From Minisyncoccota bacterium (GTDB lineage Bacteria; Patescibacteriota; Minisyncoccia; Phycocordibacterales; UBA9973), in the NCBI GenBank assembly GCA_031291825.1, contig JARLIG010000004.1, positions 22,240-86,239 of the forward strand: a DNA stretch of 64,000 nt, written 5' to 3'. A program made the position numbers and the translations under genes. This document shows positions 36,464 to 60,617 of this stretch, piece after piece. Numbering within the stretch: position 1 is the first letter of the stretch; the number at the start of each line of letters is the position of its first letter. The notes below the pieces were generated by a model, which saw nothing but the letters and a program-made list of their open reading frames with translations, searched no databases and had not been told where the DNA came from.

Positions 36464-36507
36464 CCCAGACGTCCAACGTCTGGAAGGTTCCAGACGTTGG
36501 ACGTCTG
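36464..36507. repeat. REP-like palindromic element, a double unit: CCCAGACGTCCAACGTCTGG-AAGGTT-CCAGACGTTGGACGTCTG.
   Basis: Two inverted copies of the 19-nt hairpin unit CCAGACGTTGGACGTCTGG are seen directly. The element is intergenic between tatD and rpsF. Confidence 0.8.
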
Positions 36508-36547
36508 TAGACTAATAAACTTTACTTTTCAGCATCCTTTTGCTAAT

Positions 36548-37072
36548 ATGAATCCCATGCAAGTAAGTGAAAAAGATATTGAATTAAAAGACGAAAACGA
36601 AATGACTGAAGGTGACGGCAGAGTCTACGAGGTAGGCTACTTGTTGGCTTCCACCATTACCGAGGAAAATCTTCCGGTTGTTTTTGGTAATTTAAAGGAA
36701 TTGGTTTCTTCTCTTGGAGGAATTGCGATTGCTGACGAAATGCCAAGAATGATTCAGCTTGCTTATCCGATGGTTAAAGTTGTTGCCAATGTTCGCAATA
36801 AGTTTAACACCGCCTATTTTGGTTGGGTCAAATTTACGATGGATTCCGACAAGATTTTGGAATTAAAAAAGAAACTTGACCTTGATCCAAATTATATTCG
36901 ATTTTTAATCTTAAAAACAGTTAAAGAAAATACTATCGCCGCTAAGAGATTTGTGGGTAGGGATATGGCTCATAGGAAACCAAAGACAGAAAAAGGTGAA
37001 GACGCTGGAGTCGCTGTTCCAATAAACAAAGAAGAGATTGATAAGGAAATAGATGCGTTAGTAGAAGCTTAG
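36548..37072 (+). CDS. rpsF: Ribosomal protein S6 with a C-terminal extension.
   Basis: S6-like features (YEVGYLL..., LAYPM) are present. The gene follows the conserved rpsF-ssb-rpsR order. The ORF track start at 36497 overlaps the repeat; 36548 (MNPMQV) is more likely. Confidence 0.65.
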   Translation: MNPMQVSEKDIELKDENEMTEGDGRVYEVGYLLASTITEENLPVVFGNLKELVSSLGGIAIADEMPRMIQLAYPMVKVVANVRNKFNTAYFGWVKFTMDSDKILELKKKLDLDPNYIRFLILKTVKENTIAAKRFVGRDMAHRKPKTEKGEDAGVAVPINKEEIDKEIDALVEA

Positions 37073-37106
37073 TTAAATTACGAATTTTTAATTACGAATT
37101 ACGAAA

Positions 37107-37556
37107 ATGTATTTAAACAAAGCAATCGTTATAGGAAATCTTACTCGCGACCCAGAGCTTCGCTCTCTTCCTTCTGGTATAAAAGTTTGTACTTTTTCTT
37201 TAGCTACGAATCGTGTTTGGAAAGATAAGAACGGCGCACGCCAAGAATCAGCTGATTATCACAATATCGTAGTCTTCGGACGCCAAGCGGAAACAGTTGC
37301 TCTGTATATGAAAAAAGGAAGTTCAATATTAGTCGAAGGTAGAATGCAGACGAGAAGTTGGGATGACAAGACAAGCGGAGAAAAGAAGTACCGTACCGAG
37401 ATAGTCGCTGACCGCACCCAGTTTGGTCCTAAAGGAGGTAGCGCGCCGAGTGGAGGAACAAACAGTGTTGGTAGCAAGGCTCCATCCGCCGAAGGTGAAG
37501 TTGACGCAATCGAGTATCCAGAAGAAGACATTAATCCAGAAGACATTCCATTTTAA
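37107..37556 (+). CDS. ssb: Single-stranded DNA-binding protein.
   Basis: There is an OB fold (IGNLTRDPELR...). A Gly-rich linker and an acidic C-terminal tail ending DIPF are present. Confidence 0.85.
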   Translation: MYLNKAIVIGNLTRDPELRSLPSGIKVCTFSLATNRVWKDKNGARQESADYHNIVVFGRQAETVALYMKKGSSILVEGRMQTRSWDDKTSGEKKYRTEIVADRTQFGPKGGSAPSGGTNSVGSKAPSAEGEVDAIEYPEEDINPEDIPF

Positions 37557-37570
37557 ATTATTATAAATTT

Positions 37571-37611
37571 CCAGACGTTGGACGTCTGCAAAGCAAGACG
37601 TACAACGTCTC
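37571..37611. repeat. REP-like element: CCAGACGTTGGACGTCTG plus AAGCAAGACGTACAACGTCT.
   Basis: It is near-identical to the copy at 44710-44752. Confidence 0.8.
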
Positions 37612-37617
37612 AAAATT

Positions 37618-37818
37618 ATGAAACAAGATTATTTTTCAGCCAACAATATAAAGTATATCGATTATAAGGATGTAGAAATTCTAAAGAAATTTTTAAATCC
37701 GAACGGTAAAATCGTAAGTCACAAGCGTAGTGGTGTTACTTCCAAGAACCAACGTGCTTTGGCTTCTGCCATCAAACACGCTCGATTCCTCGGATTGCTT
37801 CCTTTCGTAATAAAATAA
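37618..37818 (+). CDS. rpsR: Ribosomal protein S18.
   Basis: The segment IDYKDVEILKKFLNPNGKI...KNQRALASAIKHARFLGLLPF matches S18. Confidence 0.85.
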   Translation: MKQDYFSANNIKYIDYKDVEILKKFLNPNGKIVSHKRSGVTSKNQRALASAIKHARFLGLLPFVIK

Positions 37819-37870
37819 AATTAAAAGTCCCCAGAAGGGGATTTTTAATTATTAATGCTATAGTGATAAT

Positions 37871-40916: not shown

Positions 40917-40926
40917 AAATTTCTAG

Positions 40927-43493: not shown

Positions 43494-43527
43494 ACGAATA
43501 TATTAACACAAAAATTCAATTTATTTT

Positions 43528-43623
43528 AGAGACGTCCAACACCTGCTTTAGCAGATGTTGGACGTCTAGAGATTTAATTTTTCCCAGACGTTGGACATCC
43601 GCAGAGCGGGTGTCCAACGTCTG
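43528..43623. repeat. Two REP-like hairpins: AGACGTCCAACACCTGCTTTAGCAGATGTTGGACGTCT and CCCAGACGTTGGACATCCGCAGAGCGGGTGTCCAACGTCTG.
   Basis: Long imperfect palindromes are seen directly. They lie in the divergent intergenic region upstream of the ftsK start. Confidence 0.8.
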
Positions 43624-43815
43624 AAGCAAGTCATTTTAAAAATTATTCCGGAGATATCTCAAAGCAAAGAAAAAAGAGTTTTTAGAAAGCCTTGCGCAGG
43701 CGGGTAGCCGAGCAGTTCGCTCCGCAAGCTTGCGGAGATAGATTGCTTTATAAAAACCCTTTTTGTCTTTGTCCGAGTAGTTGCATTTTTATCCTGTCCG
43801 ATATATATTGGACAA

Positions 43816-44697
43816 ATGTTTGGAGAAGAAAAAAATCTCAAAGACAGTCAAAAAAGTTCTGAAAAAGACACCTTCTTTATACCGACTCTTTACGGACAAA
43901 CCGGAGCCTTTCATCTCGGCTCTTACACTAAAACTCACAAGCTTATTACCGCGCTTTACATGGTCACAGACATCATAGACAAAGACGAACCACTCAGAAA
44001 TAAATTAAGGACACTTGGCACCGGAATTATATCGGACATGCATTTGGTTCAGCAAAATAATACTGGATATACTATGTCCTTTATCTTCAACAAGGTCTCG
44101 GAAATCATGTATTTCTTGGACATTGCTTCCGCAGTGAATATTATTTCCGAAATGAATTGCAATATCTTGAGAAAAGAATTTTTTGAATTAAACGAAGCTA
44201 TAAAACAATCTATTGATAAAGACGAAATCGCAGACAGGCGTCAGATTGATTTGTCAGAATTTTTCAAAGAAGAAGTTTCTCCTCTCTTTAAGGAAGAAGA
44301 TATCCGACGTCGTACACCTGCTTTAGCAGATGTCCGACGTCAGGTTATTGGACATCATGCTTCCACCAGAATCGGAGTGCAGAAGGGTAGCACTTTAATG
44401 AAAGCTTTGAACGAAAAAATGTCCAAAAGAAATGAGACTAGTCACAATACGAGTGATGTCTTTGATGAACTAAAAAAAGAACGACGAGATAGTATCATAA
44501 GCATCATCAAGACCATCGGCACTGGTGCCACGATAAAGGACATAAAGGACAAAGCACATGCTATGCCTGAACAATTCAAATCCCTCATGTCCGTTAGCGA
44601 AAAAACTCTCCAAAGAGAACTCGTTTCTATGGTTCAAAACGGTGTCCTTAATAAGACTGGAGAAAAGCGCTGGAGCCGCTATTTCATTAAAAATTAG
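43816..44697 (+). CDS. Hypothetical protein with a C-terminal winged-helix-like region. It contains an in-frame REP-like insertion.
   Basis: A palindrome is embedded at 44303-44344 and translates to IRRRTPALADVRRQ. The C-terminus ...TLQRELVSMVQNGVLNKTGEKRWSRY resembles a wHTH domain. Confidence 0.45.
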   Translation: MFGEEKNLKDSQKSSEKDTFFIPTLYGQTGAFHLGSYTKTHKLITALYMVTDIIDKDEPLRNKLRTLGTGIISDMHLVQQNNTGYTMSFIFNKVSEIMYFLDIASAVNIISEMNCNILRKEFFELNEAIKQSIDKDEIADRRQIDLSEFFKEEVSPLFKEEDIRRRTPALADVRRQVIGHHASTRIGVQKGSTLMKALNEKMSKRNETSHNTSDVFDELKKERRDSIISIIKTIGTGATIKDIKDKAHAMPEQFKSLMSVSEKTLQRELVSMVQNGVLNKTGEKRWSRYFIKN

Positions 44698-44709: not shown

Positions 44710-44752
44710 TCAGACGTTGGACGTCTACTAAAGCAAGACGTACAACGTCTGA
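44710..44752. repeat. REP-like element: TCAGACGTTGGACGTCT...AAGCAAGACGTACAACGTCTGA.
   Basis: It is a sibling of the 37571 copy. It lies directly after the stop of ORF 43816..44697 and probably acts as a terminator. Confidence 0.8.
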
Positions 44753-49067: not shown

Positions 49068-49112
49068 AAAAAACCACTCCTCACGGAGTGGTTTTTTGTT
49101 GCCAATTTTTCC
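49068..49112 (+). terminator. Terminator-like hairpin AAAAACCACTCCTCACGGAGTGGTTTTTTGTTGCCAATTTTTC; this is copy 1 of an identical direct repeat.
   Basis: An identical ~45-nt sequence recurs at 49691-49735. It has a stem-loop plus a T-run. Confidence 0.7.
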
Positions 49113-49229
49113 AATTCACCTCACCCCAACCCCTCTCCAAAAAACTTTCTCCTTTTTGGAGAGGGGAAAAAGGGGAGAGGCAATTTTTGTTTGCATTTTT
49201 TCTTTGCCGTATGTTATAATATTTTGGAA

Positions 49230-49457
49230 ATGATTTATACACAGCATGCTAGAGAAAGGATGAGCTTGAGGGGTATTACGGAAGAAATGGTAAAGAAAGC
49301 CCTACTTGAGCCAGATGTGACTGGTGTGGGTTATCAAGGTAAGAACTTAGTGTTTAAGAAATTTAGTAAAGGGACAATTAAGGTTGTCTTTATAAAGAAA
49401 AAAAGTTCTGAGATTATTATTTCTGTTATTTGGGAATTAATAAATAATAAGAATTAA
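49230..49457 (+). CDS. DUF4258-family small protein (toxin-like partner of DUF2283).
   Basis: The N-terminus is MIYTQHARERMSLRGITEEMV. A TATAAT box lies at 49215-49220. The ORF track start at 49191 is probably too far upstream. Confidence 0.6.
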   Translation: MIYTQHARERMSLRGITEEMVKKALLEPDVTGVGYQGKNLVFKKFSKGTIKVVFIKKKSSEIIISVIWELINNKN

Positions 49458-49462: not shown

Positions 49463-49678
49463 ATGAAAATTACTTACGACAAAACAGTGGATGTGCTATA
49501 TCTTTATTTCCAAGATGGTGTTTTTGCGCGCAATAAAGAAGTCGAAGAAGGTATCATTTTAGATATAGGCAAAGGAAATAAAGTTCTTGGTATTGAGATA
49601 CTAAATGCAAGTAAGAAAATAAAACCAAAAAATATGAATTACTTAAATTTTCAAATTCCTGTTGGAATGCCAATATAA
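49463..49678 (+). CDS. DUF2283-family small protein (antitoxin-like partner).
   Basis: The sequence is MKITYDKTVDVLYLYFQDG...GIEILNASKK. It is 71 aa and lies 5 nt downstream of its partner. Confidence 0.6.
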   Translation: MKITYDKTVDVLYLYFQDGVFARNKEVEEGIILDIGKGNKVLGIEILNASKKIKPKNMNYLNFQIPVGMPI

Positions 49679-49690: not shown

Positions 49691-49735
49691 AAAAAAACCA
49701 CTCCTCACGGAGTGGTTTTTTGTTGCCAATTTTTC
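49691..49735 (+). terminator. Copy 2 of the identical terminator-like direct repeat.
   Basis: It matches 49068-49112 exactly. Confidence 0.7.
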
Positions 49736-49741
49736 TATTTT

Positions 49742-49816
49742 TGACGTTGGACATCCGCCAAAGGCGGATGTCCAACGTCGGCTCCAGACGTGGAGCGTCT
49801 TGGAGGTTTATCCACA
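49742..49816. repeat. Composite REP-like element with a TTTATCCACA tail: GACGTTGGACATCCGCCAAAGGCGGATGTCCAACGTC + GGCTCCAGACGTGGAGCGTCTTGGAGG + TTTATCCACAG.
   Basis: The same architecture recurs at 51511-51598. Confidence 0.8.
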
Positions 49817-49896: not shown

Positions 49897-50388
49897 ATGG
49901 AAAACAAAAAGAAAATGGCGGTGTATATTGTCTTGGGAGTTCTTTTAGTTGTTGTCGCTGGTTTTATTTTTTGGTCTATCGTAGTTTCTACGAGACCGCA
50001 ACCTGCTTCGACTGGCACACCTGTAGCTCTTACTCCTGCTGTAACGCCTACTCCTACAGAAGATACAACGACTGGTAGTGTACACACTGGTTCTGCTGTT
50101 ACTCTTGCTTACGCAGATGCACTAATTACATATGCAAATGCTCGTCTTCAACTCGACACGAATTGTCAGGCGTTAGCTAGTCCTTCCAACTTAGTTTTCA
50201 GAAATAACTCATTACTAATGGTTGATAATCGTGCTCCCGTCACTCGTACTGTTCACATCGGTTCGGTGTTCACGATTAAACCTTATGGTTTTAAAATTGT
50301 AAAACTTTCCAGCTCGACTCTTCCGGCCACTTGGCTCGTAGATTGTGACGCATCTCAAAACGTCGCCACGATTACTATTGAAAAATAA
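49897..50388 (+). CDS. Hypothetical membrane-anchored protein with a P/T-rich linker.
   Basis: An N-terminal TM helix is present. No catalytic motifs were recognised. Confidence 0.4.
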   Translation: MENKKKMAVYIVLGVLLVVVAGFIFWSIVVSTRPQPASTGTPVALTPAVTPTPTEDTTTGSVHTGSAVTLAYADALITYANARLQLDTNCQALASPSNLVFRNNSLLMVDNRAPVTRTVHIGSVFTIKPYGFKIVKLSSSTLPATWLVDCDASQNVATITIEK

Positions 50389-50432: not shown

Positions 50433-50479
50433 AAACCGACGTTGTACACCCGCAAGGCGGATGTCCAACGTCGGTTTTT
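50433..50479. repeat. REP-like hairpin in a terminator configuration: AAAAACCGACGTTGTACACCCGCAAGGCGGATGTCCAACGTCGGTTTTTGTTTTT.
   Basis: A long GC-rich stem is flanked by A- and T-runs. Confidence 0.8.
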
Positions 50480-50715: not shown

Positions 50716-50789
50716 CTCCAGACATTCCCAGACGTTGGACGTCTGTATCCTTACAGACGTCCAACGTCTGGAGGTTTATCCACATCCGC
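50716..50789. repeat. Composite REP-like element immediately upstream of the RAYT gene: CTCCAGACATTCCCAGACGTTGGACGTCTG-TATCCTTA-CAGACGTCCAACGTCTGGAGGTTTATCCACA.
   Basis: It is a double hairpin with a TTATCCACA tail. Confidence 0.8.
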
Positions 50790-50836
50790 TTCATGAAGTA
50801 TGTATGAGATAATAAAACTGTAATTTTTATTATTTT

Positions 50837-51502
50837 ATGAGAAAACATCCACTCGTAACTAATCAATATTATCATATATACAACAGGGGAGTTGATAAAC
50901 GAGATATCTTTTCAGACAAGAAAGATCTCAATCGTTTTATTTTGAGTATCAAGCAATTCAATAAAATTTATCCAGTTGGCAGTATCCGAGACAACGTGCG
51001 AGATAAAATAGTTTCTAAATATTTAAAACGACGAGGCAAAGATGCTGATGCCTTGGTTTCTATTGTTTGTTTTTGTTTAAATCCAAATCATTTTCATTTT
51101 ATTTTAAAGCAAGAAGCTGATGGTGGTATTTCTGAATTTCTAAAACGTCTTTTGGGTGGATATACAAAATATTTTAATTTAACCCACAAACGTAGTGGCG
51201 CCCTGTTTCAGGGTAGGTTTAAATCACGCTTGATAGACAGTGAACAATATTTTTTGAAAATTTTTCCATACGTGAATATCAACCACATGATTCATGACAT
51301 ACCGGAAGAAAAAAGATTTTTGGTTTCTTCTAGTGACGTTGAATACGAAAAAATGGTCTTTGATATTGTCTCTAAAAAAGAAGCTGAAAATCTCCTCGCT
51401 TTTTATGGCAATAAAAACAATTTTAAAAATGAATGCCTAAAAGTATCTTCAATAATTAGAGAACAAAGAGAAGAGGTGTCTTCATTTCTAGAAGAAGAGT
51501 AG
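50837..51502 (+). CDS. IS200/IS605-like HuH tyrosine transposase, probably a REP-associated tyrosine transposase (RAYT / TnpA_REP).
   Basis: Motifs present are YYHIYNRGVDKRDIF, the HuH motif NPNHFHFILK, the Tyr region GGYTKYFNLTHKRSGALFQGRFKSRLI and YFLKIFPYVNINHM. The gene is flanked on both sides by REP-like elements. Confidence 0.7.
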   Translation: MRKHPLVTNQYYHIYNRGVDKRDIFSDKKDLNRFILSIKQFNKIYPVGSIRDNVRDKIVSKYLKRRGKDADALVSIVCFCLNPNHFHFILKQEADGGISEFLKRLLGGYTKYFNLTHKRSGALFQGRFKSRLIDSEQYFLKIFPYVNINHMIHDIPEEKRFLVSSSDVEYEKMVFDIVSKKEAENLLAFYGNKNNFKNECLKVSSIIREQREEVSSFLEEE

Positions 51503-51510: not shown

Positions 51511-51598
51511 TTCCAGACGTTGGACTGACGTTGTACACCCGCAAGGCGGATGTCCAACGTCGGCTCCAGACGTCCAACGTCTGGAGGGTTATCCACTT
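51511..51598. repeat. Composite REP-like element immediately downstream of the RAYT gene, ending in GGTTATCCACT.
   Basis: The sequence is TTCCAGACGTTGGACTGACGTTGTACACCCGCAAGGCGGATGTCCAACGTCGGCTCCAGACGTCCAACGTCTGGAGGGTTATCCAC. Confidence 0.8.
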
Positions 51599-52284: not shown

Positions 52285-55200
52285 ATGAAGAACAATTTTA
52301 TAAAAGAATACGGCAAAGTTGTTGTATGTTTTATGTTTCTTGTTGTTTTTCTGATACCCAAGTTCTCTTTTGCTTCTGGTCAGTGCTCTAAGAGTGGATA
52401 TACGGTTTTAGTTATTAATGGAGTAAATACCACTCAACAGGAGGCTGAAAACAATGCAACTAATCTAGAATCTAAATTTAAACCAACATATAATGGAGAA
52501 AACCTTAATATTAAATATCTTTATAACCCTACTCATACTGCAATAGCCGATCTTCTTGATGCAGGAGTGCAAAAAACCGATGACCAGTCTATGTCTGACC
52601 TTCAAGATTCAGATTTTGCGCAGATGTTAAATGATGCTAGTAATAAAGTTAAAACACAGAAACTTTTACTAGTTGGTCATTCTCAGGGAAATTTTTATGC
52701 CAATACTTTTTACGATACAGTTGTTGATGCTACTGGCGGTATTCCGAGTCAGTCTATTGGTGTTTATGCGGTGGCTACGCCAGCTAACCGTGTTTCCGGA
52801 ATAAATAGTGCAAATTATATAACTTCTGACACAGACCAAGTGATAGACCATATTCCTGGCATTTTAAAACCAAATGTCCACATAGATTTTAAAGCCAGTG
52901 ACGGTGATTTAATGGGCCATGATTTTTCTAAAATATATTTAAAATATGAAGGTGCAAAAATTGTTTCCGATATAGATACCTCACTTAATAAACTAAAAAC
53001 CAACGATATTCAAAATGAAAACGTTGCTTGTATTAATCCACCGAAATTAACTTTGCCACAAAAAATACAAGGAACGATTTTGTCTACGCTTGACCATGTG
53101 ACGCTTCCATTTCAAGATGCTCTTGTTTATGTTGCTACTGGTGTAACTAATGTTACTGTCGCTATCGCTAATACGACGGTAAATCTTACCGGCTCAGCTA
53201 TTTCTGCTGTTTCTTCTTTGTTTAACCAAACTGTCAGCAATACCAATACTTTGGCGACAAGTGGCGGAGGGGATGTAATAAATTCGATAGAACCCACAAC
53301 ACTAAGTAATTCTACAAGTACTCAACTGACAGAAAATTTACAACCAACTCCACAATTTACATCACCACAAAATGTTTCAATTATAAATTCTTCACCGACG
53401 ACCGAAACCACTTCTTCAAATTCAGCAGCATCATTTGTCGGTAGGGGTGGCGGTGGAGAAGTTGCTATGGCAGAGGAAAATGACGAAGGAGCAATAATTC
53501 CACCAACCATTCCACCGATAGATAATAATCCACCATCTACTGATGTTACTCCTCCCGTCATCACTGTTTTGGGAGACAATCCTGCAGTGGTTGTGCAATA
53601 TGATACTTACACCGATGCTGGGGCTACTGCCACTGACGACGTTGATGGTGCTATTAATGTTGTTGCCAGCGGAACAGTTGATACGACAACGGTTGGCATT
53701 TACACTATTACTTACACGGCGACAGATTCCTCAGGAAATATTGCAACGGCGACTCGTAGTGTAACAGTAGTTGCTTCACAGTCCACTACGAATCCTCCTC
53801 CGTCACCACTCAGTACTTTTACGATTGATAAAGATACAACTCTGACTGCTGGTGAGTACAATTATGAAAATTTATTAATAACCAATAACGCAATATTAAC
53901 CTTACAAGGAGACCCTACTTCCTCGAGTGCTTTCAAGGGAGTAAAAATTAACGCAGATAATATTACTATCGATCCTGGTTCTTCTATTTCTGCAGATGGA
54001 GAGGGTTATGCAGGAGGTGATGGACCAGGAAATTCTTCAGTGTACTATGTCGGGGCAAGTTATGGAGGACTTAGTTATAATGGAGCTACGTATTCGCAAA
54101 CTTATGGTTCAGCTATAAAGCCTACAGACTTAGGCAGCGGAGGACATAGTTCTGGCGGTGGGGCGATTGAGCTAAATGTCTCAAATACTTTTACCGATGA
54201 TGGTACTGTCTCTGCTGATGGTAATATTTCTAGCAGTGGTGGAAGTATTTATGTGACAGCTCAAAATATTACTGGTAGTGGAATATTGCAAGCTGATGGT
54301 GGAAATCTTTTTGGGAGCGGTTATTTCCAAAGTCCAGGAGGGGGTGGAAGAATTGCCGTTTATTATCAAACATCCACTTTTAGCGGAACAGCAGAAGCAA
54401 AAGGTGGATGTGGTAGTTACGATAGTTCGACTAATTCTTGCGCGGGCGACGGAACGGTTGGTTTTTTTAACACGAGTACTAATGATTTATATCTAAACAA
54501 CTCTTGGGAATTTCTACAAGCAGATGCACCCTTTTTATTTAATAATATTTATATTTCAAATGGTGCCAAGGTAACATCGGAAAATGATGTAACGATAACA
54601 ACCAAAAATAATTTTATCGTTGATAAAAATTCTTCTTTTGCTTTAGCTGATAATCAAATATTAAATTCTCCGACACTTATAATTAGCAGTAATTCAACTT
54701 TAACTCTTTCGGGAACTGAAAAAATTACTTCCAACGACCTTATTCTTACTGGAAATTCCACTTTAACTATCGTTCCTCAAAAAATACTTTCTTTAACGAT
54801 TCCAAATATTCATATTGATTCTGGTTCTTCTATTTCTGCAGACGGAAAAGGTTATGGTCAAAGTGAAGGTCCAGGAGAACCAGCGGTAAGTGGTGCTGGC
54901 GCAAGTTATGGTGGTGTCGGTTATCAAAATTCTTTAACCTCAACATATGGATCTCAAACAAATCCAGTCGATTTAGGAAGCGGTGCGGCGTTGAGTGGTG
55001 GCGGAGCCATACAACTTATTGTTTCAAATACTTTTGAAAATGATGGAATAGTTTCTGCTTCTGGTAGCGCTTCTGGTAGTGGAGGAAGTATAAATATAAA
55101 TACAAACAGCTTGTCTGGTACTGGTGCATTTAGTGCGGACGGTGGAGGACTTTACGGCAATGGTTATTTTCAGGGCCCAGGTGGAGGGGGACGGGTTGCT

Positions 55201-55998
55201 ATTTCTTACAACGCCACTTCTTTTAGCGGAACAGTAGAAGCTAAAGGAGGATGTGGCAGTTATGATGGTTGGAGTAGTTCTTGCGCAGGTGGTGGGACGG
55301 TTTATATTCTAAATGAATCAGTTCCAGTCCAGAGTTCTTTAAAAACAATTACAGCATTTGATTTTTCAAATTTAACGCCGATTGTTTCTGGTGTTGTTGA
55401 TGAAACGAACCATGCTATTTCTTTGACTGTCCCTTATGGAACGGATATAACGACTCTCGTGCCTATGATTACTATTTCAGATAAAGCATCAATTAGTCCA
55501 ACCACAAACACGTCTCAAGATTTTACGAATCCAGTTACTTATAAAATTACTGCAGAAGATGGATCAACACAAAATTATGTTGTGAATGTGACCGTAGCGC
55601 CCAACCCAGATCCTCCAGTGACACCGCCTCAAACACCAAGCACGACACTACCTTCAATCACAAGTTATACATTTAATGGTACGGCTGGAAACATAATAAT
55701 AAATCCGACAGCAATAACCCCTTTTTCTTTAATGATGACTGCTAGTGAAAATGTAAATTGGATGTCTATAAAAATTGAAAATCAAAACGATTCAAGCACT
55801 TATAAAATTTTTCAGTCTGGGGCAGGCTGTGTGGATGGCACAAATACTTGCACAAAAAGTTGGGACGGTGCTTTGTCAAAAGGGGGGTTGTTGCAAAATG
55901 GAACTTTTCGAATAAAGGTTCATGTCAAAGACAGCGCGGGCAATGAATACGACGATTATCTTACCCCATATATAATTACAGTTGACACTTCGTTGTAA
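52285..55998 (+). CDS. Giant secreted protein (1237 aa). It has an N-terminal alpha/beta-hydrolase (lipase-like GHSQG) domain, an Ig-like domain, two tandem ~190-aa Gly-rich beta-helix-like repeats and C-terminal Ig-like domains.
   Basis: A signal peptide is present. The nucleophile elbow is LLVGHSQGNFY. The two repeats are GSGGHSSGGGAIELNVSNTF...KGGCGSYDSSTNSCAGDGTV and GSGAALSGGGAIQLIVSNTF...KGGCGSYDGWSSSCAGGGTV. Confidence 0.6.
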   Translation: MKNNFIKEYGKVVVCFMFLVVFLIPKFSFASGQCSKSGYTVLVINGVNTTQQEAENNATNLESKFKPTYNGENLNIKYLYNPTHTAIADLLDAGVQKTDDQSMSDLQDSDFAQMLNDASNKVKTQKLLLVGHSQGNFYANTFYDTVVDATGGIPSQSIGVYAVATPANRVSGINSANYITSDTDQVIDHIPGILKPNVHIDFKASDGDLMGHDFSKIYLKYEGAKIVSDIDTSLNKLKTNDIQNENVACINPPKLTLPQKIQGTILSTLDHVTLPFQDALVYVATGVTNVTVAIANTTVNLTGSAISAVSSLFNQTVSNTNTLATSGGGDVINSIEPTTLSNSTSTQLTENLQPTPQFTSPQNVSIINSSPTTETTSSNSAASFVGRGGGGEVAMAEENDEGAIIPPTIPPIDNNPPSTDVTPPVITVLGDNPAVVVQYDTYTDAGATATDDVDGAINVVASGTVDTTTVGIYTITYTATDSSGNIATATRSVTVVASQSTTNPPPSPLSTFTIDKDTTLTAGEYNYENLLITNNAILTLQGDPTSSSAFKGVKINADNITIDPGSSISADGEGYAGGDGPGNSSVYYVGASYGGLSYNGATYSQTYGSAIKPTDLGSGGHSSGGGAIELNVSNTFTDDGTVSADGNISSSGGSIYVTAQNITGSGILQADGGNLFGSGYFQSPGGGGRIAVYYQTSTFSGTAEAKGGCGSYDSSTNSCAGDGTVGFFNTSTNDLYLNNSWEFLQADAPFLFNNIYISNGAKVTSENDVTITTKNNFIVDKNSSFALADNQILNSPTLIISSNSTLTLSGTEKITSNDLILTGNSTLTIVPQKILSLTIPNIHIDSGSSISADGKGYGQSEGPGEPAVSGAGASYGGVGYQNSLTSTYGSQTNPVDLGSGAALSGGGAIQLIVSNTFENDGIVSASGSASGSGGSININTNSLSGTGAFSADGGGLYGNGYFQGPGGGGRVAISYNATSFSGTVEAKGGCGSYDGWSSSCAGGGTVYILNESVPVQSSLKTITAFDFSNLTPIVSGVVDETNHAISLTVPYGTDITTLVPMITISDKASISPTTNTSQDFTNPVTYKITAEDGSTQNYVVNVTVAPNPDPPVTPPQTPSTTLPSITSYTFNGTAGNIIINPTAITPFSLMMTASENVNWMSIKIENQNDSSTYKIFQSGAGCVDGTNTCTKSWDGALSKGGLLQNGTFRIKVHVKDSAGNEYDDYLTPYIITVDTSL

Positions 55999-56001: not shown

Positions 56002-56046
56002 CTCAGACGTTGGACTGACGTTGGACGTCTGGAGGGTTATGCACAG
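56002..56046. repeat. REP-like element (deletion variant): CTCAGACGTTGGACTGACGTTGGACGTCTGGAGGGTTATGCACAG.
   Basis: It shares its 5' half with the 51511 copy and has the TTATGCACA tail. Confidence 0.8.
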
Positions 56047-57338: not shown

Positions 57339-57340
57339 TT

Positions 57341-59098
57341 ATGGACAATAAATCATCTAGACAAAAAGTAGCGCTTATCTCTGTATATGACAAGACGGGC
57401 ATTAAAGAATTTGCAAAAAATCTAGTAGATTTGGGCTGGAAAATAGTCTCTTCTGGTGGCACAGCTAAACATTTAACAGAAGCGGGTATGCCCGTGACTG
57501 ACGTAGCGGAAATTACCGGCATGCCACCAATTCTTTCACACCGAGTTTTGACGCTACATCCGAAAATCCATGGCGGGCTTTTGGCGCTTGATACATCGGA
57601 GCATTTAGCAGAGCTGGAAAAATATGGGATTCCTTGGATTGATTTAGTTTGTTGTGATTTATATCCACTGGAGGAGGAAATAAAAAACTCTAGCGCGACG
57701 CGAGAATCAGTTATTGAAAAAACAGATATTGGTGGACCGACAATGCTTCGTTCGGGGGCAAAAGGGAGGCGCATAACTATTTGTGACCCGAGCGATAGAG
57801 AAAAAGTAATTGAGTGGTTAAAAAAAGGCGAGCCTGAACGTGAAGAATTTTTAAATAATTTAGCAGCTAAGGCGGAAGCAGTAATTGCAAAATACTGTTC
57901 TGCTTCTGCCGAGTATCACAGTAAAGGAGAGCTCAAAGGAATTTTTGGAAAGAAAGAAATAGAATGCGCATATGGGGAAAATGCATATCAAAAACCAGCC
58001 AGCTTATATAGAAATTTAAATGTGCATAACACTCCAGACGGTGGACGTCTGGAAGCTACCAGACGTCCAACGTCTGGAGACCCATTAGCCATACATAATT
58101 GGCAACTCGTGGCAGGCAGTCCGCTTTCCTATAATAATATTTGCGATGTGGATAGAATGATGCAAACGATGACACATATTGGCGCTGGTTTTGAGAAAAA
58201 TTTTGGAAAAGTTCCAGACATCGCGATTGGCGCAAAGCATGGCAATGCTTGTGGGGCAGCGTTTGCTGAAGAAGAAATTAATGCGATTGATAATATGCTC
58301 TTGGGAGACTTGCGCGCAATTTTCGGCGGTTCGGTGATGCTAAATTTTAATGTAGATGAAAAAATTGCGGAAGAATTAATCCATAAATATGCAGGTGCTG
58401 GGAGACGATTGCTGGACATTGTCGCGGCACCATCTTTTTCTGCCGAGGCTATAGAGATTTTATCTCGCAAAAAAGGTAAATGCAGAATTTTAGTAAATCC
58501 AAACATTTTGAAAGCAGGATTATCTTCTTTGGATACAACTTCTAGGTTTCGTTACGTGCGTGGGGGATTTTTGACTCAACCGAATTATACTTTTGTTCCA
58601 AGATTGCAAGAGCCAGAGATGTCGGTATTCCGCCAAGGCGGAAGCCCGACACCTGTGGCGATTATACAAGATGTCATTCTCGCTTGGGCTGTCGGATGCA
58701 CATCAAATAGCAATACAATTACAATTGTGAAAGATGGCAGACTTTATGGCAATGGCGTAGGACAACAAGACCGTGTAGGGGCCGCCAAGCTTGCAATTTT
58801 TCGCGCAGACGATGCCACCGCTTTTGCTGTGGATAACCCTCCAGACGTTGGACGTCTGGAAGCTTCCAGACGTCCAACGTCTGGGACAGGGGCTGATTTA
58901 GAAGGGGCTGTAGCTTGCAGTGATAGCTTCTTTCCTTTCCCAGATGCGCCGGAAGTACTAATAAATCGGGGGATAAAGACCATCTTTTCCACTAGTGGCT
59001 CAGTAAATGACGATAAAATTATAGAACTTTGCAAGACAAAAAACGTAAATCTAATAATGCTTCCAGACTCTGAAGCCAGGGGATTCTACCAGCATTAA
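57341..59098 (+). CDS. purH: Bifunctional AICAR transformylase / IMP cyclohydrolase (PurH) carrying two in-frame REP-like insertions.
   Basis: The N-terminal MGS-like motifs are ALISVYDKTGI...SSGGTAKHL...RVLTLHPKIHGG. The C-terminal AICARFT motifs are SPLSYNNICD, ACSDSFFPFPD and FYQH. The inserted peptides are PDGGRLEATRRPTSGD and PDVGRLEASRRPTSGT. Confidence 0.75.
   Translation: MDNKSSRQKVALISVYDKTGIKEFAKNLVDLGWKIVSSGGTAKHLTEAGMPVTDVAEITGMPPILSHRVLTLHPKIHGGLLALDTSEHLAELEKYGIPWIDLVCCDLYPLEEEIKNSSATRESVIEKTDIGGPTMLRSGAKGRRITICDPSDREKVIEWLKKGEPEREEFLNNLAAKAEAVIAKYCSASAEYHSKGELKGIFGKKEIECAYGENAYQKPASLYRNLNVHNTPDGGRLEATRRPTSGDPLAIHNWQLVAGSPLSYNNICDVDRMMQTMTHIGAGFEKNFGKVPDIAIGAKHGNACGAAFAEEEINAIDNMLLGDLRAIFGGSVMLNFNVDEKIAEELIHKYAGAGRRLLDIVAAPSFSAEAIEILSRKKGKCRILVNPNILKAGLSSLDTTSRFRYVRGGFLTQPNYTFVPRLQEPEMSVFRQGGSPTPVAIIQDVILAWAVGCTSNSNTITIVKDGRLYGNGVGQQDRVGAAKLAIFRADDATAFAVDNPPDVGRLEASRRPTSGTGADLEGAVACSDSFFPFPDAPEVLINRGIKTIFSTSGSVNDDKIIELCKTKNVNLIMLPDSEARGFYQH
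58024..58081. repeat. REP-like element inside purH: TGTGCATAAC-ACTCCAGACGGTGGACGTCTGG-AAGCTA-CCAGACGTCCAACGTCTGGAG.
   Basis: It is a double hairpin plus a TGTGCATAAC tail, and it is in-frame in the CDS. Confidence 0.8.
58828..58887. repeat. REP-like element inside purH: GTGGATAACC-CTCCAGACGTTGGACGTCTGG-AAGCTT-CCAGACGTCCAACGTCTGGG.
   Basis: It is a double hairpin plus a GTGGATAACC tail, and it is in-frame in the CDS. Confidence 0.8.
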
Positions 59099-59170
59099 TT
59101 TATCCCCAGACATTCCACGTCTAGAGCTCCGCGCTGTTGATTTTTTTATAAAAAGCATTACAATACAAGG

Positions 59171-59755
59171 ATGGAAATTCTAGAAAAAATATTGGGTAAT
59201 TCAGCACGAGTAAAAATCATGCGGCTTTTTCTGCTCAATAAAAACAAGATTTTTACGAATAAAGATATTGTGCAACGTAGCCGAGTAAGTGCCCAAGTTG
59301 TCCGTCGAGAGCTCAAGCTGCTTTTATCGGTTGGTTTTATAAAAAAGCGTGGTGATGCAAATTGGTCTTTTAATTTTTCTTTCAAATACGGCGAAGAATT
59401 TCAAGATTTACTAGTCAGGTCTGATAGTTTGAACAGCGAAACTATTTTAAACAATTTTAAAAAAGTCGGACGAGTGAAGTTGGTGGTTGCGGCTGGACTT
59501 TTTATCAAAAATGAAGACAGTCGAGTTGACCTGCTGATTGTCGGAGATAAATTGAGTAAGGCTAAAATCGAAGAAGGAATGCATAGACTCGAAGCTGAGA
59601 TTGGCGCTGAGTTAGTTTATGCAGTTTTCGATACAAAAGAATTTATGTATAGATTAAATATGTATGACAAGCTTGTGCGGGACATTCTGGACTATCCACA
59701 CGAGATTCTTTTGCAGGCCAAGGAGTTATCCACACAGGCTCTTAAAAAGGTTTAA
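59171..59755 (+). CDS. Hypothetical protein with an N-terminal winged-helix-like DNA-binding region.
   Basis: The N-terminus ...NKDIVQRSRVSAQVVRRELKLLLSVGFIKKRG resembles an ArsR/MarR-type wHTH domain. Confidence 0.4.
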   Translation: MEILEKILGNSARVKIMRLFLLNKNKIFTNKDIVQRSRVSAQVVRRELKLLLSVGFIKKRGDANWSFNFSFKYGEEFQDLLVRSDSLNSETILNNFKKVGRVKLVVAAGLFIKNEDSRVDLLIVGDKLSKAKIEEGMHRLEAEIGAELVYAVFDTKEFMYRLNMYDKLVRDILDYPHEILLQAKELSTQALKKV

Positions 59756-59829
59756 AAGCTGGTATAATATAGTTATAACTTTGATAAGGTCGAACTTAAA
59801 AAAGAATTTATTAGTTAAATATTTTATTT

Positions 59830-60525
59830 ATGAGTAATATTTGGATGTCATGGGGCGATGTTTTTAATACCTCGTTCCAAGGTTTGTGGTTTGGTTTTGT
59901 GCAATTTGCACCAAGACTCGTTTTGGCAATTATTTTCTTTATTATTGGTTGGATTTTGGGATCTTTGATTTCCAAAGCCATTCAACAAGTTTTCACTAGT
60001 TTAAAAATCGATAGTCTCTTTTCTTCTATCGGTGCAGATAGTGCCTTTAAAAAGGCAGGACTAACTTTAAACTCTGGATATTTTGTCGGCGAAGTCGCAC
60101 GATGGTTTGTGATTATCGTTTTCCTTCTGCCTTCACTTTCTTTGGTTGGTTTGACGGACGTAGCTTCTTATTTGACTGATGGTGTTCTTGGATTTTTACC
60201 ACAGGTGATAATTGCTGCTTTCGTTTTGATTATTTCTGCGGTTGTGTCTGAAGGGCTAGAAAAAGTTGTCTTGGCTACCGCAAAATCAGTTAACCTAAAA
60301 TCAGCTCGTGTTCTTAGCTTGGTTGCAAAATATGCTATTTGGATTTTTGCAATTATTATTGTGCTTGGCAAGCTCGGACTTGGAGACTACATGAGTGTTC
60401 TCTTCACTGGCATTGTTGCAATGCTTGCACTCGGAGGCGCCCTAGCTTTTGGTTTGGGTGGTAGAGAGGCTGCCGCAAGGTTGCTTGCAAGGCTTGGAGA
60501 AGAAGTTCCTCCTTCTCATAAGTAA
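59830..60525 (+). CDS. Hypothetical polytopic membrane protein with repeated TM-helix modules, possibly small-conductance channel-like.
   Basis: It has four to five TM helices with a repeating pattern. Confidence 0.4.
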   Translation: MSNIWMSWGDVFNTSFQGLWFGFVQFAPRLVLAIIFFIIGWILGSLISKAIQQVFTSLKIDSLFSSIGADSAFKKAGLTLNSGYFVGEVARWFVIIVFLLPSLSLVGLTDVASYLTDGVLGFLPQVIIAAFVLIISAVVSEGLEKVVLATAKSVNLKSARVLSLVAKYAIWIFAIIIVLGKLGLGDYMSVLFTGIVAMLALGGALAFGLGGREAAARLLARLGEEVPPSHK

Positions 60526-60544
60526 AAAGTTTCAATAGAATTTT

Positions 60545-60617
60545 AGACGTCGGATATCCGCTACTACGGGTGTCCGATGTCTCTGTAAAAAAGATGTCAT
60601 TTATTGACATCTTTTTT
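60545..60617. terminator. Degenerate REP-like hairpin (AGACGTCGGATATCCGCTACTACGGGTGTCCGATGTCT) followed by the terminator AAAAAAGATGTCATTTATTGACATCTTTTTT.
   Basis: Inverted repeats are seen directly after the stop at 60525. Confidence 0.65.

What the first reader, a model, noticed from the sequence alone, without database searches (positions are those of the whole stretch)
36464..60582. Dense family of GC-rich palindromic repeat elements (about 15 copies in 25 kb) in an AT-rich genome
Copies lie at 36464, 37571, 43528, 44303, 44710, 49742, 50433, 50716, 51511, 56002, 58024, 58828, 59103 (degenerate) and 60545 (degenerate), with a probable copy at 30712. All share the 19-nt hairpin unit CCAGACGTTGGACGTCTGG (8-bp stem, TGG/CCA loop). 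The unit is often present as two inverted units separated by a 6-nt spacer, or fused to a longer stem GACGTTGGACATCCGC..GCGGATGTCCAACGTC. Several variants are near-identical, for example 37571 and 44710. Most copies sit immediately after stop codons and probably double as terminators; others sit in promoters or inside genes. This looks like a structured REP/MITE-like family in a lineage where such elements are not the textbook expectation.
Basis: seen in the sequence. Interest (0 to 1): 0.7.

Follow-up and report, generated by a model that had tools for sequence, protein, structure and literature searches.

The report
REP-like hairpin repeats with their transposase
A tiny-genome Patescibacteria (CPR) bacterium carries GC-rich hairpin repeats clustered around a conserved single-locus HUH tyrosine transposase gene, much like the REP/RAYT systems of proteobacteria, and several copies sit in frame inside housekeeping genes such as purH.

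Summary
The 19-nt unit CCAGACGTTGGACGTCTGG has 20 matches at ≤3 mismatches against 0 expected. All listed sites reproduce except 30712, which is probably chance; 59103 and 60545 are degenerate.

ORF 50837-51502 encodes a Y1 HUH transposase. Its closest solved folds are IS608 TnpA and E. coli TnpA-REP. Repeat composites flank it on both sides, and the commonest 16-mer in the window is the one flanking this gene.

The host is a Paceibacterota MAG. Orthologues of the gene (60-88% identity) sit in the same neighbourhood in nine other genomes. Each is flanked by hairpins whose stems covary between lineages. A one-sided tag, GGTTATCCACA, which resembles a DnaA box, is conserved.

Copies are gained and lost between relatives: purH here is 48 nt longer than its orthologue. 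In related genomes roughly 10-30% of units lie in frame inside housekeeping genes such as topA, guaA, iscS and trxB.

Best reading: a REP/REPIN-RAYT-type system, a new variant in the CPR. The terminator idea holds for only 2-3 copies. Transposase activity and the role of the tag are inferred, not shown.

The parts
50837..51502 (+). RAYT-like Y1 HUH tyrosine transposase gene (221 aa). It carries YYHIYNRG, the HUH motif H85-F-H87, the invariant tyrosines Y109/Y112 in GGYTKYFN, GALFQGRFKS, and an extra C-terminal helical region of about 70 aa.
   Evidence: Pfam Y1_Tnp scores 26.4 bits against a cutoff of 23. NCBIfam REP_Tyr_transpos gives E 4e-7 but 30 bits against a cutoff of 80. The AF2 model has pLDDT 79.7. 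Top Foldseek PDB hits are ISHp608 TnpA 2a6m, E. coli TnpA-REP 4er8 (TMt 0.61) and ISDra2 TnpA. Invariant motifs hold across 30 homologues. Synteny is conserved.
50716..50784 (+). Composite immediately upstream of the transposase gene: a partial unit (CTCCAGACATTC), an inverted doublet (unit, 6 nt, unit) and the tag GAGGTTTATCCACA. The conserved promoter-like TATGAGATAAT follows.
   Evidence: It folds at -25.5 kcal/mol, z -9.0. The same composite sits at the same place in L001. The flanking 16-mer is the commonest in the window.
51511..51597 (+). Composite immediately downstream of the transposase gene: a half unit, a long-stem hairpin, a CCA-loop unit and the tag GAGGGTTATCCAC. It looks nested or mosaic, rather like a BIME (the mosaic REP clusters of E. 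coli).
   Evidence: It folds at -27.7 kcal/mol, z -6.5.
49742..49816 (+). Composite of about 75 nt: a long-stem hairpin (GACGTTGGACATCCGC..GCGGATGTCCAACGTC), a degenerate unit and the tag GAGGTTTATCCACA, upstream of ORF 49897-50388.
   Evidence: (families D6, D17). The hairpin folds at -22.6 kcal/mol, z -9.5.
50433..50476 (.). Long-stem hairpin flanked by A5 and T5 tracts, 45 nt after the stop of ORF 49897-50388. It is the most terminator-like copy.
   Evidence: It folds at -21.8 kcal/mol, z -7.9.
36464..36508 (.). Inverted doublet (CCA-loop unit first), 4 nt after the tatD stop and upstream of rpsF.
   Evidence: It folds at -24.1 kcal/mol, z -9.7. It is flagged as terminator-like on the minus strand only.
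37571..37612 (.). Doublet variant (unit, AAAGCAA, degenerate unit) between ssb and rpsR. It ends 5 nt before the rpsR ATG (37618).
   Evidence: It folds at -15.4 kcal/mol, z -6.8.
43528..43569 (.). Long hairpin with CCAA-first arms in the divergent ftsK / ORF 43816 intergenic region.
   Evidence: It folds at -16.6 kcal/mol, z -9.0. The block 43504-43633 is absent from the orthologous L001 spacer.
43584..43623 (.). Long-stem hairpin in the same intergenic region.
   Evidence: It folds at -20.9 kcal/mol, z -8.5. It is absent in L001.
44303..44344 (.). Diverged long hairpin inside ORF 43816-44697, read in frame as IRRRTPALADVRRQ. It lies in a variable linker of the protein.
   Evidence: It folds at -12.7 kcal/mol, z -5.8. 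The L001 orthologue shares it, while the more distant L003/L005 orthologues have unrelated linkers.
44710..44752 (.). Doublet variant between convergent genes, with a T-tract, near-identical to 37571.
   Evidence: It folds at -21.1 kcal/mol, z -10.2. It is flagged as terminator-like. The orthologous L001 site is occupied by a different subtype.
56002..56045 (+). Single unit with an 11-nt internal duplication (TGACGTTGGAC) and the tag GAGGGTTATGCACA. It lies 4 nt after the stop of the 1237-aa surface protein and upstream of the rplJ leader promoter TATGCTATAAT.
   Evidence: The site is orthologous in L001 but the loop is flipped, TGG against CCA.
58021..58080 (-). Tag-like TGTGCATAAC plus an inverted doublet inside purH, read in frame as NTPDGGRLEATRRPTSG. 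Net gain is 48 nt (58031-58078) relative to the orthologue.
   Evidence: The alignment to the solved PurH 4ehi breaks at aa 223-262. The 16 codons are exactly absent from the 82%-identical L001 PurH, with no target duplication. It folds at -26.4 kcal/mol, z -9.6.
58828..58884 (-). Tag TGTGGATAACCCT plus an inverted doublet inside purH, read in frame as VDNPPDVGRLEASRRPTSG.
   Evidence: The alignment to 4ehi breaks at aa 491-516, about 24 extra residues. It folds at -27.6 kcal/mol, z -8.9.
59103..59125 (.). Degenerate remnant (CCCAGACATTCCACGTCTAG) 5 nt after the purH stop. It resembles the partial unit at 50716.
   Evidence: It has no significant fold (z -1.0).
60545..60582 (.). Degenerate long-stem hairpin 20 nt after the stop of the MscS-like gene. 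An ordinary terminator follows at 60586-60618.
   Evidence: It folds at -11.6 kcal/mol, z -5.0.
30712..30757 (.). It is probably not a family member.
   Evidence: The core hit has 2 mismatches, within chance. It does not fold (z +0.2). GlyRS aligns without an insertion.

Best explanation
The repeats are a REP/REPIN-type family of non-autonomous hairpin elements. They are tied to a single vertically inherited Y1 HUH tyrosine transposase of the RAYT type, encoded at 50837-51502 in a Paceibacterota (Patescibacteria/CPR) genome.

The basic unit is an 8-11 bp hairpin with a TGG or CCA loop. The commonest mobile form is two inverted units separated by 6-10 nt, which fold as single-stranded DNA into one hairpin of about 20 bp. 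About half of these carry, on one side only, a 13-14 nt unpaired tag: TGTGGATAA(A/C)CCTC, or GAGGGTTATCCACA on the other strand.

Inferred mechanism, by analogy with IS200/IS605 TnpA and E. coli TnpA-REP: the enzyme recognises the hairpin plus tag on single-stranded DNA, cleaves it, and transfers the element to new sites without a target-site duplication. Copies pile up around the gene itself and spread more thinly across the genome.

Shown here:
- The family is real.
- The gene has a Y1 HUH fold and motifs.
- The repeats flank the gene in ten genomes.
- Hairpin stems covary between lineages.
- Synteny of the gene is conserved.
- Copies are present or absent between relatives.
- Copies are tolerated in frame inside genes.

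Inferred: that this enzyme is the mobiliser, that the tag is its recognition or cleavage determinant, and that single-stranded DNA is the substrate.

Intragenic copies survive because the unit has no stop codon in any of the six frames. The usual reading, PDVGRLEASRRPTSG, is a hydrophilic loop.
For: 1. The repeats are far beyond chance and fold as long hairpins.
2. ORF 50837-51502 matches Pfam Y1_Tnp above its cutoff. Its best NCBIfam hit is REP_Tyr_transpos. The AF2 model's closest solved folds are ISHp608 TnpA, E. coli TnpA-REP and ISDra2 TnpA. The HUH motif and tyrosines are invariant in 30 homologues.
3. Repeat composites flank the gene on both sides. The commonest 16-mer in the 64-kb window (AGACGTCCAACGTCTG, 10 occurrences) is the one in both flanks, which is the criterion Bertels et al. 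2017 (PMC5581495) used for REP-associated RAYTs.
4. All 16 accepted sites lie within -14.4 to +9.7 kb of the gene, and none lies in 1-30 kb.
5. Orthologues at 60-88% identity occupy the same neighbourhood (ftsK ... transposase, ~210-aa protein, Ig-like surface protein, rplJ, rplL) in L001, L003, L005 and L099-L101.
6. Of the nine relatives examined, six carry a stem-loop plus the tag TTWTNCACA on both sides. In L001 the stem-loop downstream of the gene is an unrelated sequence. L099 has the tag only upstream of the gene, and for L036 only that upstream side was read. All tags point in the same direction as the gene.
7. Stems differ between lineages but stay paired: 95% of cells pair, 6 of 8 pairs show compensatory changes, and 0 of 500 shuffles reach this.
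8. Evidence of mobility. purH here is 48 nt longer than its 82%-identical orthologue, with no target duplication. The 130-nt block 43504-43633 is absent in L001. An orthologous site is occupied by a different subtype.
9. The same 17-mer is multi-copy and multi-contig only in Patescibacteria genomes. Hits outside the CPR are singletons, mostly in GC-rich taxa. Nothing matches in phage or plasmid collections.
10. Among 42 distinct doublets, 20 carry the tag on exactly one side and none on both. Background is 0.65%.
Against: - There is no biochemical or transcript evidence.
- The protein scores far below NCBIfam's cutoff for canonical RAYT (30 against 80 bits). Profile searches find no solved homologue by sequence.
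- The GTAG tag of classical REPs is absent.
- Copy numbers seen are tens, not hundreds.
- Half of the doublets lack the tag, so it cannot be strictly required for persistence.
- The boundary of the purH insertion is ambiguous: TGTGCATAAC replaces ATATAAAAAAT of the orthologue.
- Single-copy status in the source genome could not be checked beyond 64 kb. One relative also holds a second, 35%-identical paralogue.
- The hairpins used for the covariation count were picked by eye as hairpins next to the gene.
Confidence: 0.75

Rival explanations
1. The gene is still an autonomous IS200-type insertion sequence. The hairpins are its left and right ends, together with gene-less derivatives (palindrome-associated transposable elements), rather than a domesticated RAYT with REPs.
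For: The fold matches IS608 and ISDra2 TnpA as well as it matches TnpA-REP. Pfam places it in Y1_Tnp / IS200-like. The hairpin-plus-tag modules on the two sides point the same way, as IS200/IS605 ends do, rather than being inverted. In L003 and L005 all 3-5 hairpin copies lie within 2 kb of the gene.
Against: The gene sits at the same chromosomal position, between the same neighbours, in genomes whose proteins have diverged to 60-88% identity. That indicates vertical inheritance, not transposition. Only one copy is present in the window and in each locus. The dispersed copies are hairpins without the gene. Nothing matches on plasmids or phages.
Confidence: 0.12
2. The hairpins are host regulatory or structural sequences: terminators, mRNA 3'-end stabilisers or protein-binding sites. 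They would be kept similar by selection or gene conversion, and the adjacent transposase would be incidental.
For: Thirteen of 16 sites are intergenic although the region is 90% coding. About nine start 4-45 nt after a stop codon. Two or three have T-tracts. Tags lie upstream of conserved -10 boxes at the transposase gene and at rplJ.
Against: Most copies lack a T-tract, and the genome's clear terminators are unrelated hairpins. Copies occur in frame inside purH here and inside topA, guaA, iscS and trxB in relatives. One lies inside the rpsF-ssb-rpsR operon. Copies are present or absent between close relatives. The association with the gene holds in ten genomes even though the hairpin sequence changes.
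Confidence: 0.07
3. The tagged modules are DnaA-binding sites, because the tag fits the DnaA-box consensus TTWTNCACA. On this reading the hairpin-plus-box modules act in replication control or DnaA-dependent regulation, and their mobility is secondary.
For: Exact TTATCCACA occurs 5 times against 0.7 expected, and 3 of the 5 are in repeat tags. The tag keeps the TTWTNCACA form in lineages whose hairpin sequence differs. It is enriched on one side of the doublets.
Against: No dnaA or dnaN gene is in the window. The cumulative GC skew shows no V-shaped turn. The boxes are spaced about 0.8-5 kb apart rather than clustered as in an origin. Conservation of the tag is equally well explained by recognition by the conserved transposase. 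DnaA binding was not tested.
Confidence: 0.04
4. The repeats are DNA uptake sequences for the competence machinery. ComEC, a type IV pilus ATPase and pilins are encoded in the window. As in Neisseria, such sequences often form inverted pairs after genes.
For: Competence and pilus genes lie at 4116-11239 and 15800-17275. Inverted pairs after stop codons resemble Neisseria uptake-sequence terminators (from established knowledge).
Against: There are no copies in the first 30 kb and the copies cluster tightly round the transposase gene. The conserved unit (19 nt plus tag) is much longer than known uptake sequences. Hairpin sequences differ between close lineages while the gene association persists.
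Confidence: 0.02

Closest known systems
REP/REPIN-RAYT systems of Proteobacteria (E. coli TnpA-REP/YafM with REPs and BIMEs; Pseudomonas REPINs; Nunvar 2010, Bertels & Rainey 2011, Ton-Hoang 2012, Messing 2012)
   Same: - A Y1 HUH transposase fold.
- The gene sits at a fixed chromosomal site and is flanked by the repeats it presumably mobilises.
- The repeats are short GC-rich hairpins, often as inverted doublets that form one long hairpin.
- They are mostly extragenic, just downstream of genes.
- Mosaic clusters occur next to the gene.
- An unpaired tag lies next to the hairpin.
- Inheritance is vertical.
   Different: - The host is in the Patescibacteria/CPR, with a small, mostly AT-rich genome. 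No paper in the searched library describes REP/RAYT there.
- The protein is a separate clade: 221 aa with a C-terminal extension, 30 bits against the NCBIfam RAYT cutoff of 80.
- The tag is TGTGGATAA(A/C)C, not GTAG. It is 13-14 nt long, on one side of the doublet only, and on only about half of the doublets.
- The doublet spacer is very short (6-10 nt).
- The flanking modules are direct, not inverted.
- Tens of copies were seen, clustered near the gene.
- Roughly 10-30% of units are in frame inside genes.
IS200/IS605 family insertion sequences and their gene-less palindrome-associated derivatives
   Same: A Y1 HUH TnpA fold. Subterminal hairpins on both sides of the gene point the same way. 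Insertion leaves no target-site duplication.
   Different: The gene is syntenic across genomes that have diverged to 60% protein identity. There is no tnpB. Only hairpins are dispersed, not the gene.
Rickettsia palindromic elements (RPE; Ogata et al. 2000) and the intragenic REPs noted by Di Nocera et al. 2013 (PMC3733652)
   Same: Palindromic repeats inserted in frame into housekeeping protein genes of a reduced genome, adding a short peptide without destroying the gene.
   Different: RPEs are 100-150 bp, have unrelated sequences and have no known dedicated transposase. Here the element is 48-62 nt and has a candidate transposase next to it. Di Nocera's CGTC-tagged families have an unpaired CGTC tag and 8-9 bp stems that start with A-T pairs. 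Here CGTC lies inside the stem.
Neisseria Correia elements, dRS3 and DNA uptake sequence pairs
   Same: Short inverted repeats after genes in a naturally competent organism.
   Different: Correia elements have terminal inverted repeats and a TA duplication. Uptake sequences are 10-12 nt and evenly dispersed. Neither is linked to a Y1 transposase.

Membership tests
RAYT (REP-associated tyrosine transposase) | Y1 HUH transposase fold with an HUH motif and a catalytic tyrosine | tested here: met
   Pfam Y1_Tnp is above its cutoff. Foldseek top hits are ISHp608 TnpA, TnpA-REP 4er8 and ISDra2 TnpA. H85-F-H87 and Y109/Y112 are invariant in 30 homologues.
RAYT (REP-associated tyrosine transposase) | Sequence membership in the curated RAYT equivalog (NCBIfam NF047646) | tested here: not met
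   It is the best NCBIfam hit, but at 30 bits against a cutoff of 80. This is a related, distinct clade. JGI's 'RayT' names for homologues are COG-level labels.
RAYT (REP-associated tyrosine transposase) | Gene flanked by REP/REPIN sequences whose 16-mers are over-represented in the genome | tested here: met
   Both flanks hold AGACGTCCAACGTCTG, the commonest 16-mer of the window at 10 copies. Flanking stem-loops were seen in nine further genomes. Only 64 kb of the source genome could be counted.
RAYT (REP-associated tyrosine transposase) | Single copy, fixed position, vertical inheritance | tested here: inconclusive
   Synteny is conserved in six further loci beyond the window, and nothing matches on plasmids or phages. 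Copy number per complete genome was not measurable. One relative has a 35%-identical second paralogue.
REP/REPIN | Short palindromic unit, commonly as two inverted units forming a hairpin, in many copies | tested here: met
   There are 42 distinct doublets across loci. Copy numbers are tens per genome in the sequence available.
REP/REPIN | Extragenic location | tested here: inconclusive
   In the window 13 of 16 sites are intergenic although the region is 90% coding. Three sites here, and roughly 10-30% of units in four related genomes, are intragenic and in frame.
REP/REPIN | Conserved unpaired GTAG (or CGTC) tag at the foot of the hairpin | tested here: not met
   The flank consensus is TGTGGATAA(A/C)CCTC on one side only. 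CGTC lies within the stem, unlike the families in PMC3733652.
IS200/IS605 insertion sequence | The transposase gene moves together with its ends, giving multiple copies at variable sites | tested here: not met
   The neighbourhood is the same in the window and six further loci. There is one gene copy per locus, and the dispersed copies lack the gene.
MITE (classical, from a DDE transposon) | Terminal inverted repeats with a target-site duplication | tested here: not met
   No duplication is seen at the purH filled and empty sites. The whole element is one hairpin.
Intrinsic terminators | GC-rich hairpin followed by a T-tract at the 3' end of a gene | tested here: not met
   Only 2 of about 16 copies pass the scan, plus 1 by eye. 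One copy is inside an operon and three are inside genes.
Rickettsia palindromic elements | Palindromic repeat inserted in frame in protein-coding genes | tested here: met
   This is a functional resemblance only. Sequence, size and host differ, so it is not a member.

The most novel reading that the evidence does not exclude
The hairpin-plus-tag modules and the syntenic HUH enzyme form a conserved host system of the Paceibacterota rather than a mere genomic parasite. The enzyme would act on hairpins that carry a DnaA-box-like tag (TTWTNCACA). These hairpins lie in its own promoter, 5' UTR, coding region and 3' end, and upstream of the rplJ operon. That would couple single-strand DNA processing to replication or gene control. 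As a by-product the system would seed short in-frame peptide loops (PDVGRLEASRRPTSG) into essential enzymes of ultra-small genomes.
Probability: 0.15. Interest if true: 0.8.

Novelty: new variant of a known kind. Interest (0 to 1): 0.6.

Why it matters
REPIN-RAYT systems are described as vertically inherited replicators found in about 10% of bacteria (bioRxiv 10.1101/2021.07.10.451892) and have been studied mainly in Proteobacteria. Finding an analogous system in the Patescibacteria matters for four reasons.

- It extends the phenomenon to streamlined, episymbiotic lineages, where selfish DNA is expected to be purged.
- It offers natural covariation between an enzyme clade and its hairpin, with a conserved tag. 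That makes the recognition rules of Y1 HUH enzymes directly testable.
- When intergenic space is scarce, these elements evidently persist inside essential genes as in-frame loops. This is a Rickettsia-like outcome, but here with a candidate transposase.
- In practice, the repeats can break or mis-join CPR metagenome assemblies. They also add spurious-looking peptide inserts to housekeeping proteins.

Tried and rejected
- **Rfam:** a gathering-threshold scan of the window found only 23S rRNA, so no known RNA family explains the repeats.
- **tRNA scan:** none found, so there is no tRNA-linked integration.
- **Sequence searches of the transposase against solved structures:** a single-sequence search and a 30-sequence profile both found nothing relevant. 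Only the fold comparison worked.
- **Exact look-up of the window protein in the assemblies index:** not on record. The host was identified from a 100%-identical NCBI cluster instead.
- **Phage and plasmid collections:** no match to the 75-nt composite.
- **Terminator hypothesis:** scanned and rejected for most copies.
- **Copy at 30712:** rejected.
- **Tag as a -35 element:** the spacing from the tag to the conserved TGAGATAAT -10 box varies from 20 to 31 nt between genomes (my count). At rplJ the tag abuts the -10 box. A fixed promoter role is therefore unlikely.
- **Replication origin in the window:** no dnaA or dnaN gene and no skew turn.
- **Di Nocera CGTC REP families:** considered because of the GACGTC core, and rejected on structure.
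- **CRISPR:** rejected because the spacing is irregular, the repeats are palindromic and some are intragenic.

Full report
**1. The observation**

The 19-nt unit CCAGACGTTGGACGTCTGG occurs 20 times at ≤3 mismatches, counting both strands, against 0 in shuffles. The 13-nt core gives 24 hits at ≤2 mismatches against 0.55 expected. The 16-nt arm of the long-stem variant gives 21 hits at ≤3 mismatches against 0.3 expected.

All listed coordinates show the element when read directly.
- an 8-bp stem with a TGG or CCA loop;
- inverted pairs with a 6-nt spacer;
- the long stem GACGTTGGACATCCGC..GCGGATGTCCAACGTC;
- near-identity of the copies at 37571 and 44710.

As single-stranded DNA the composites fold into one hairpin of 17-21 bp, with dG -12 to -28 kcal/mol and z -5 to -10.

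Three sites are weak. 59103 is a remnant and 60545 is degenerate. 30712 is probably chance: it does not fold, and GlyRS aligns through it without an insertion.

No copy lies in 1-30.7 kb. The 16 accepted sites all fall within a 24-kb span. By my arithmetic, under uniform placement that has a probability of about 1e-5.

**2.

The centre of the cluster is ORF 50837-51502.
- It matches Pfam Y1_Tnp (IS200-like) above its cutoff.
- Its best NCBIfam hit is 'REP-associated tyrosine transposase', but far below that model's cutoff: 30 against 80 bits.
- A 30-sequence alignment shows invariant YYHIYNRG, NHFHF (the HUH motif), GGYTKYFN (the tyrosines) and LFQGRFKS.
- An AlphaFold model (pLDDT 79.7) finds ISHp608 TnpA, E. 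coli TnpA-REP (4er8, best TM-score 0.61) and ISDra2 TnpA as its closest solved structures.

Repeat composites lie directly upstream (50716-50784) and downstream (51511-51597). The commonest 16-mer in the whole window, AGACGTCCAACGTCTG with 10 copies, is the one in both flanks. Bertels et al. 2017 (PMC5581495) used this criterion to separate REP-associated RAYTs from other genes.

**3. Host and inheritance**

An identical protein is on record from a 'Candidatus Pacebacteria/Paceibacterota' MAG on an 87.5-kb contig. About 3,440 homologues were found. The best 120 are all about 220 aa long and 60-88% identical, and those that carry a source name come from Paceibacterota, Nomurabacteria, Parcubacteria or Patescibacteria.

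In six further loci the gene lies in the same neighbourhood, with purH added in some genomes. The order is:
- ftsK on the opposite strand;
- a ~290-aa protein;
- peptidoglycan-binding proteins;
- the transposase;
- a ~210-aa protein;
- a large Ig-like surface protein;
- rplJ and rplL.

A transposase that keeps its place while diverging to 60% identity is behaving like a domesticated, vertically inherited gene, as RAYTs do.

**4. Hairpin and enzyme across lineages**

L001 (80% identical enzyme; Nomurabacteria MAG CAWHSF01) has the same repeat family. The same composite lies upstream of its gene, and at least 16 core hits lie within 20 kb.

More distant orthologues have different hairpins at the same places:
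- CCAGGTATCCGATACCTGG in L003;
- GTCGGGTGTTGGACACCCGAC in L005;
- CGGACGTCCAACGTCCG in L100;
- TAGACGTCCAACGTCTA in L099.

Across 16 such hairpins the 8-bp stem stays 95% paired. Six of the 8 pairs show compensatory double changes, and 0 of 500 shuffles reach this. One caveat applies: I chose these sequences by eye as hairpins next to the gene.

What stays constant is the three-base loop (TGG or CCA, CCG in one lineage) and a tag 3' of the hairpin, (A/G)GGTT(A/T)TNCACA. In six of the nine relatives a stem-loop plus tag lies on both sides of the gene, pointing the same way as the gene. In L001 the stem-loop downstream of the gene is an unrelated sequence. L099 has the tag only upstream of the gene, and for L036 only that upstream side was read. 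Several relatives also carry a cognate hairpin in the 5' UTR.

Some relatives have a hairpin inside the coding sequence itself. It appears in the protein alignment as DVGRL, DVQRP or GVGHP peptides in the variable loop, and as DVQRL, DVGRL or GIRYL at the C-terminus.

**5. Anatomy of the mobile form**

From 42 distinct doublets collected in the window, related genomes and metagenomes, the outward flank consensus is TGTGGATAA(A/C)CCTC|CAGACG. Twenty doublets carry this tag on exactly one side and none on both. The background rate is 0.65%.

The canonical element is therefore tag, unit (TGG loop), 6-10 nt, unit (CCA loop), then GAG, about 62 nt in all. An untagged form of about 48 nt also exists.

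Next to the gene the units combine with long-stem hairpins into mosaics of about 75-90 nt (49742-49816 and 51511-51597).

The tag fits the DnaA-box consensus TTWTNCACA. Exact TTATCCACA occurs 5 times against 0.7 expected, and 3 of the 5 are in tags. I regard recognition by the conserved enzyme as the likelier reason for its conservation. DnaA binding is not excluded.

**6. Mobility and life inside genes**

purH (57341-59098) contains two copies in frame.
- Alignment to the solved PurH 4ehi breaks exactly at the two copies, at aa 223-262 and 491-516.
- Against the 82%-identical L001 orthologue, the first copy is a clean 16-codon (48-nt) gain with no target duplication.
- Its left boundary is ambiguous, because the tag-like TGTGCATAAC replaces ATATAAAAAAT of the orthologue.

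Other differences between the window and L001:
- The 130-nt block with two hairpins at 43504-43633 is absent from L001.
- The site after ORF 43816-44697 is occupied in both genomes but by different subtypes.
- The copy upstream of rplJ is shared, but its loop is flipped (TGG against CCA) and the window copy has an 11-nt duplication.

In four related genomes, roughly 10-30% of units lie within real coding sequence. The genes are those for topoisomerase I, GMP synthase, an ABC transporter, cysteine desulfurase (the same site in two genomes), thioredoxin reductase, RNase J and a surface protein.

The unit has no stop codon in any frame. The usual reading, PDVGRLEA(S)RRPTSG, is a hydrophilic loop.

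**7. Distribution**

The 17-mer CAGACGTTGGACGTCTG is multi-copy and spread over many contigs only in Patescibacteria genomes. CAWHSF01 has 11 blocks on three contigs, nine of them spread along a 430-kb contig. JBAYFP01 has 12 blocks and CAZKWN01 has 8. Hits outside the CPR are singletons, mostly in GC-rich taxa, at about the number expected by chance.

Exact doublets occur in 27 metagenome stretches. Nothing matches in phage or plasmid collections.

**8. What it is not**

The terminator reading fits only 2-3 copies. The copy at 37571 lies inside the rpsF-ssb-rpsR operon.

It is not a classical MITE, because there is no target duplication. It is not CRISPR. It is not one of Di Nocera's CGTC REP families.

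An autonomous IS200 is unlikely given the synteny. Uptake sequences are unlikely given the clustering.

**9. Comparison and novelty**

The system works like REP/REPIN-RAYT, and it meets most of the defining features of that kind:
- the fold;
- repeats flanking the gene;
- over-represented flanking 16-mers;
- inverted doublets;
- conserved synteny.

It fails two defining features: membership of the curated RAYT sequence family, and the GTAG tag. It also differs in host phylum, the one-sided 13-nt tag, the direct orientation of the flanking modules, the very short spacer, local clustering and frequent in-frame intragenic copies.

Full-text searches found no paper describing REP/RAYT in the CPR. 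Database pipelines already label some homologues 'RayT' or 'REP-associated tyrosine transposase'.

I classify it as a new variant of a known kind, with interest 0.6. Enzyme activity, the substrate and the role of the tag remain inferences.

Noticed in passing
window 24204-27755: The isoleucyl-tRNA synthetase ORF (1183 aa) carries a complete histidine phosphatase (His_Phos_1) domain at aa 523-685, inserted within the catalytic tRNA-synt_1 match (aa 19-519, then 790 onward). This is an unusual domain fusion or insertion.
   Followed up: no
window 21037-21060, 30344-30367, 37076-37106 (and 27373-27396): A tandem motif AATTACGAAT-N4-AATTACGAAT (14-nt period) lies directly upstream of the start codons of argS, glyS and ssb. 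All six exact copies of the 10-mer in the window are in these three places (family D7, 69). It may be a 5'-UTR regulatory or translation signal.
   Followed up: partly
window 49068-49116 and 49692-49740: Two 49-nt direct repeats, 96% identical, each contain a terminator hairpin (AAAAAACCACTCC..GGAGTGGTTTTTT). They bracket a small cassette of a DUF4258 protein (49191-49457) and a 71-aa ORF (49463-49678). This may be a toxin-antitoxin-like insertion (family D16, 11).
   Followed up: no
window 62449-64000: A 23S rRNA gene starts here with no 16S rRNA or tRNA in the preceding sequence; the upstream gene encodes a PKD/peptidoglycan-binding protein. The rRNA genes therefore look unlinked. The match covers model positions 1-1237 in 1552 nt, which implies about 300 nt of insertions or expansions.
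   Followed up: partly
L001 18644-20410 (purH of the relative): The orthologous purH of the relative has its own 69-nt in-frame insertion (PQSLGTSLRSATPSEKHTAEATL). It has inverted ends AGTCGCTCGG..CCGAGGCGACT and is absent from the window. It looks like a second, unrelated palindromic element family that also lives inside genes.
   Followed up: no
window 56014-56032 vs L001 17257-17275: The orthologous repeat copies upstream of rplJ differ by an inversion of the hairpin loop (TGG against CCA). This is a flip of the kind produced by template switching within a hairpin. The window copy also has an 11-nt duplication, TGACGTTGGAC.
   Followed up: partly
window 50785-50836 and RAYT promoters in L001, L028: A 10-bp palindrome CTTCATGAAG lies in the transposase promoter region of the window, L001 and L028. 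In the window and L028 it sits between the tag and the TGAGATAAT extended -10 box, a box that is conserved in most relatives. It may be an operator.
   Followed up: no
window 52285-55998 (repeats 53959-54470 vs 54805-55313) and 45315-49022: Two surface proteins of about 1,235 aa flank the transposase region. One has an internal duplication with an 843-846 nt period at 71-81% identity, and the other has 78-nt tandem repeats at 45630-45776.
   Followed up: no
L037 66-404 (CAWHSF010000002.1): The relative's genome holds a second Y1 transposase fragment that is only 35% identical to the window protein. More than one Y1 clade may therefore coexist in these genomes.
   Followed up: no
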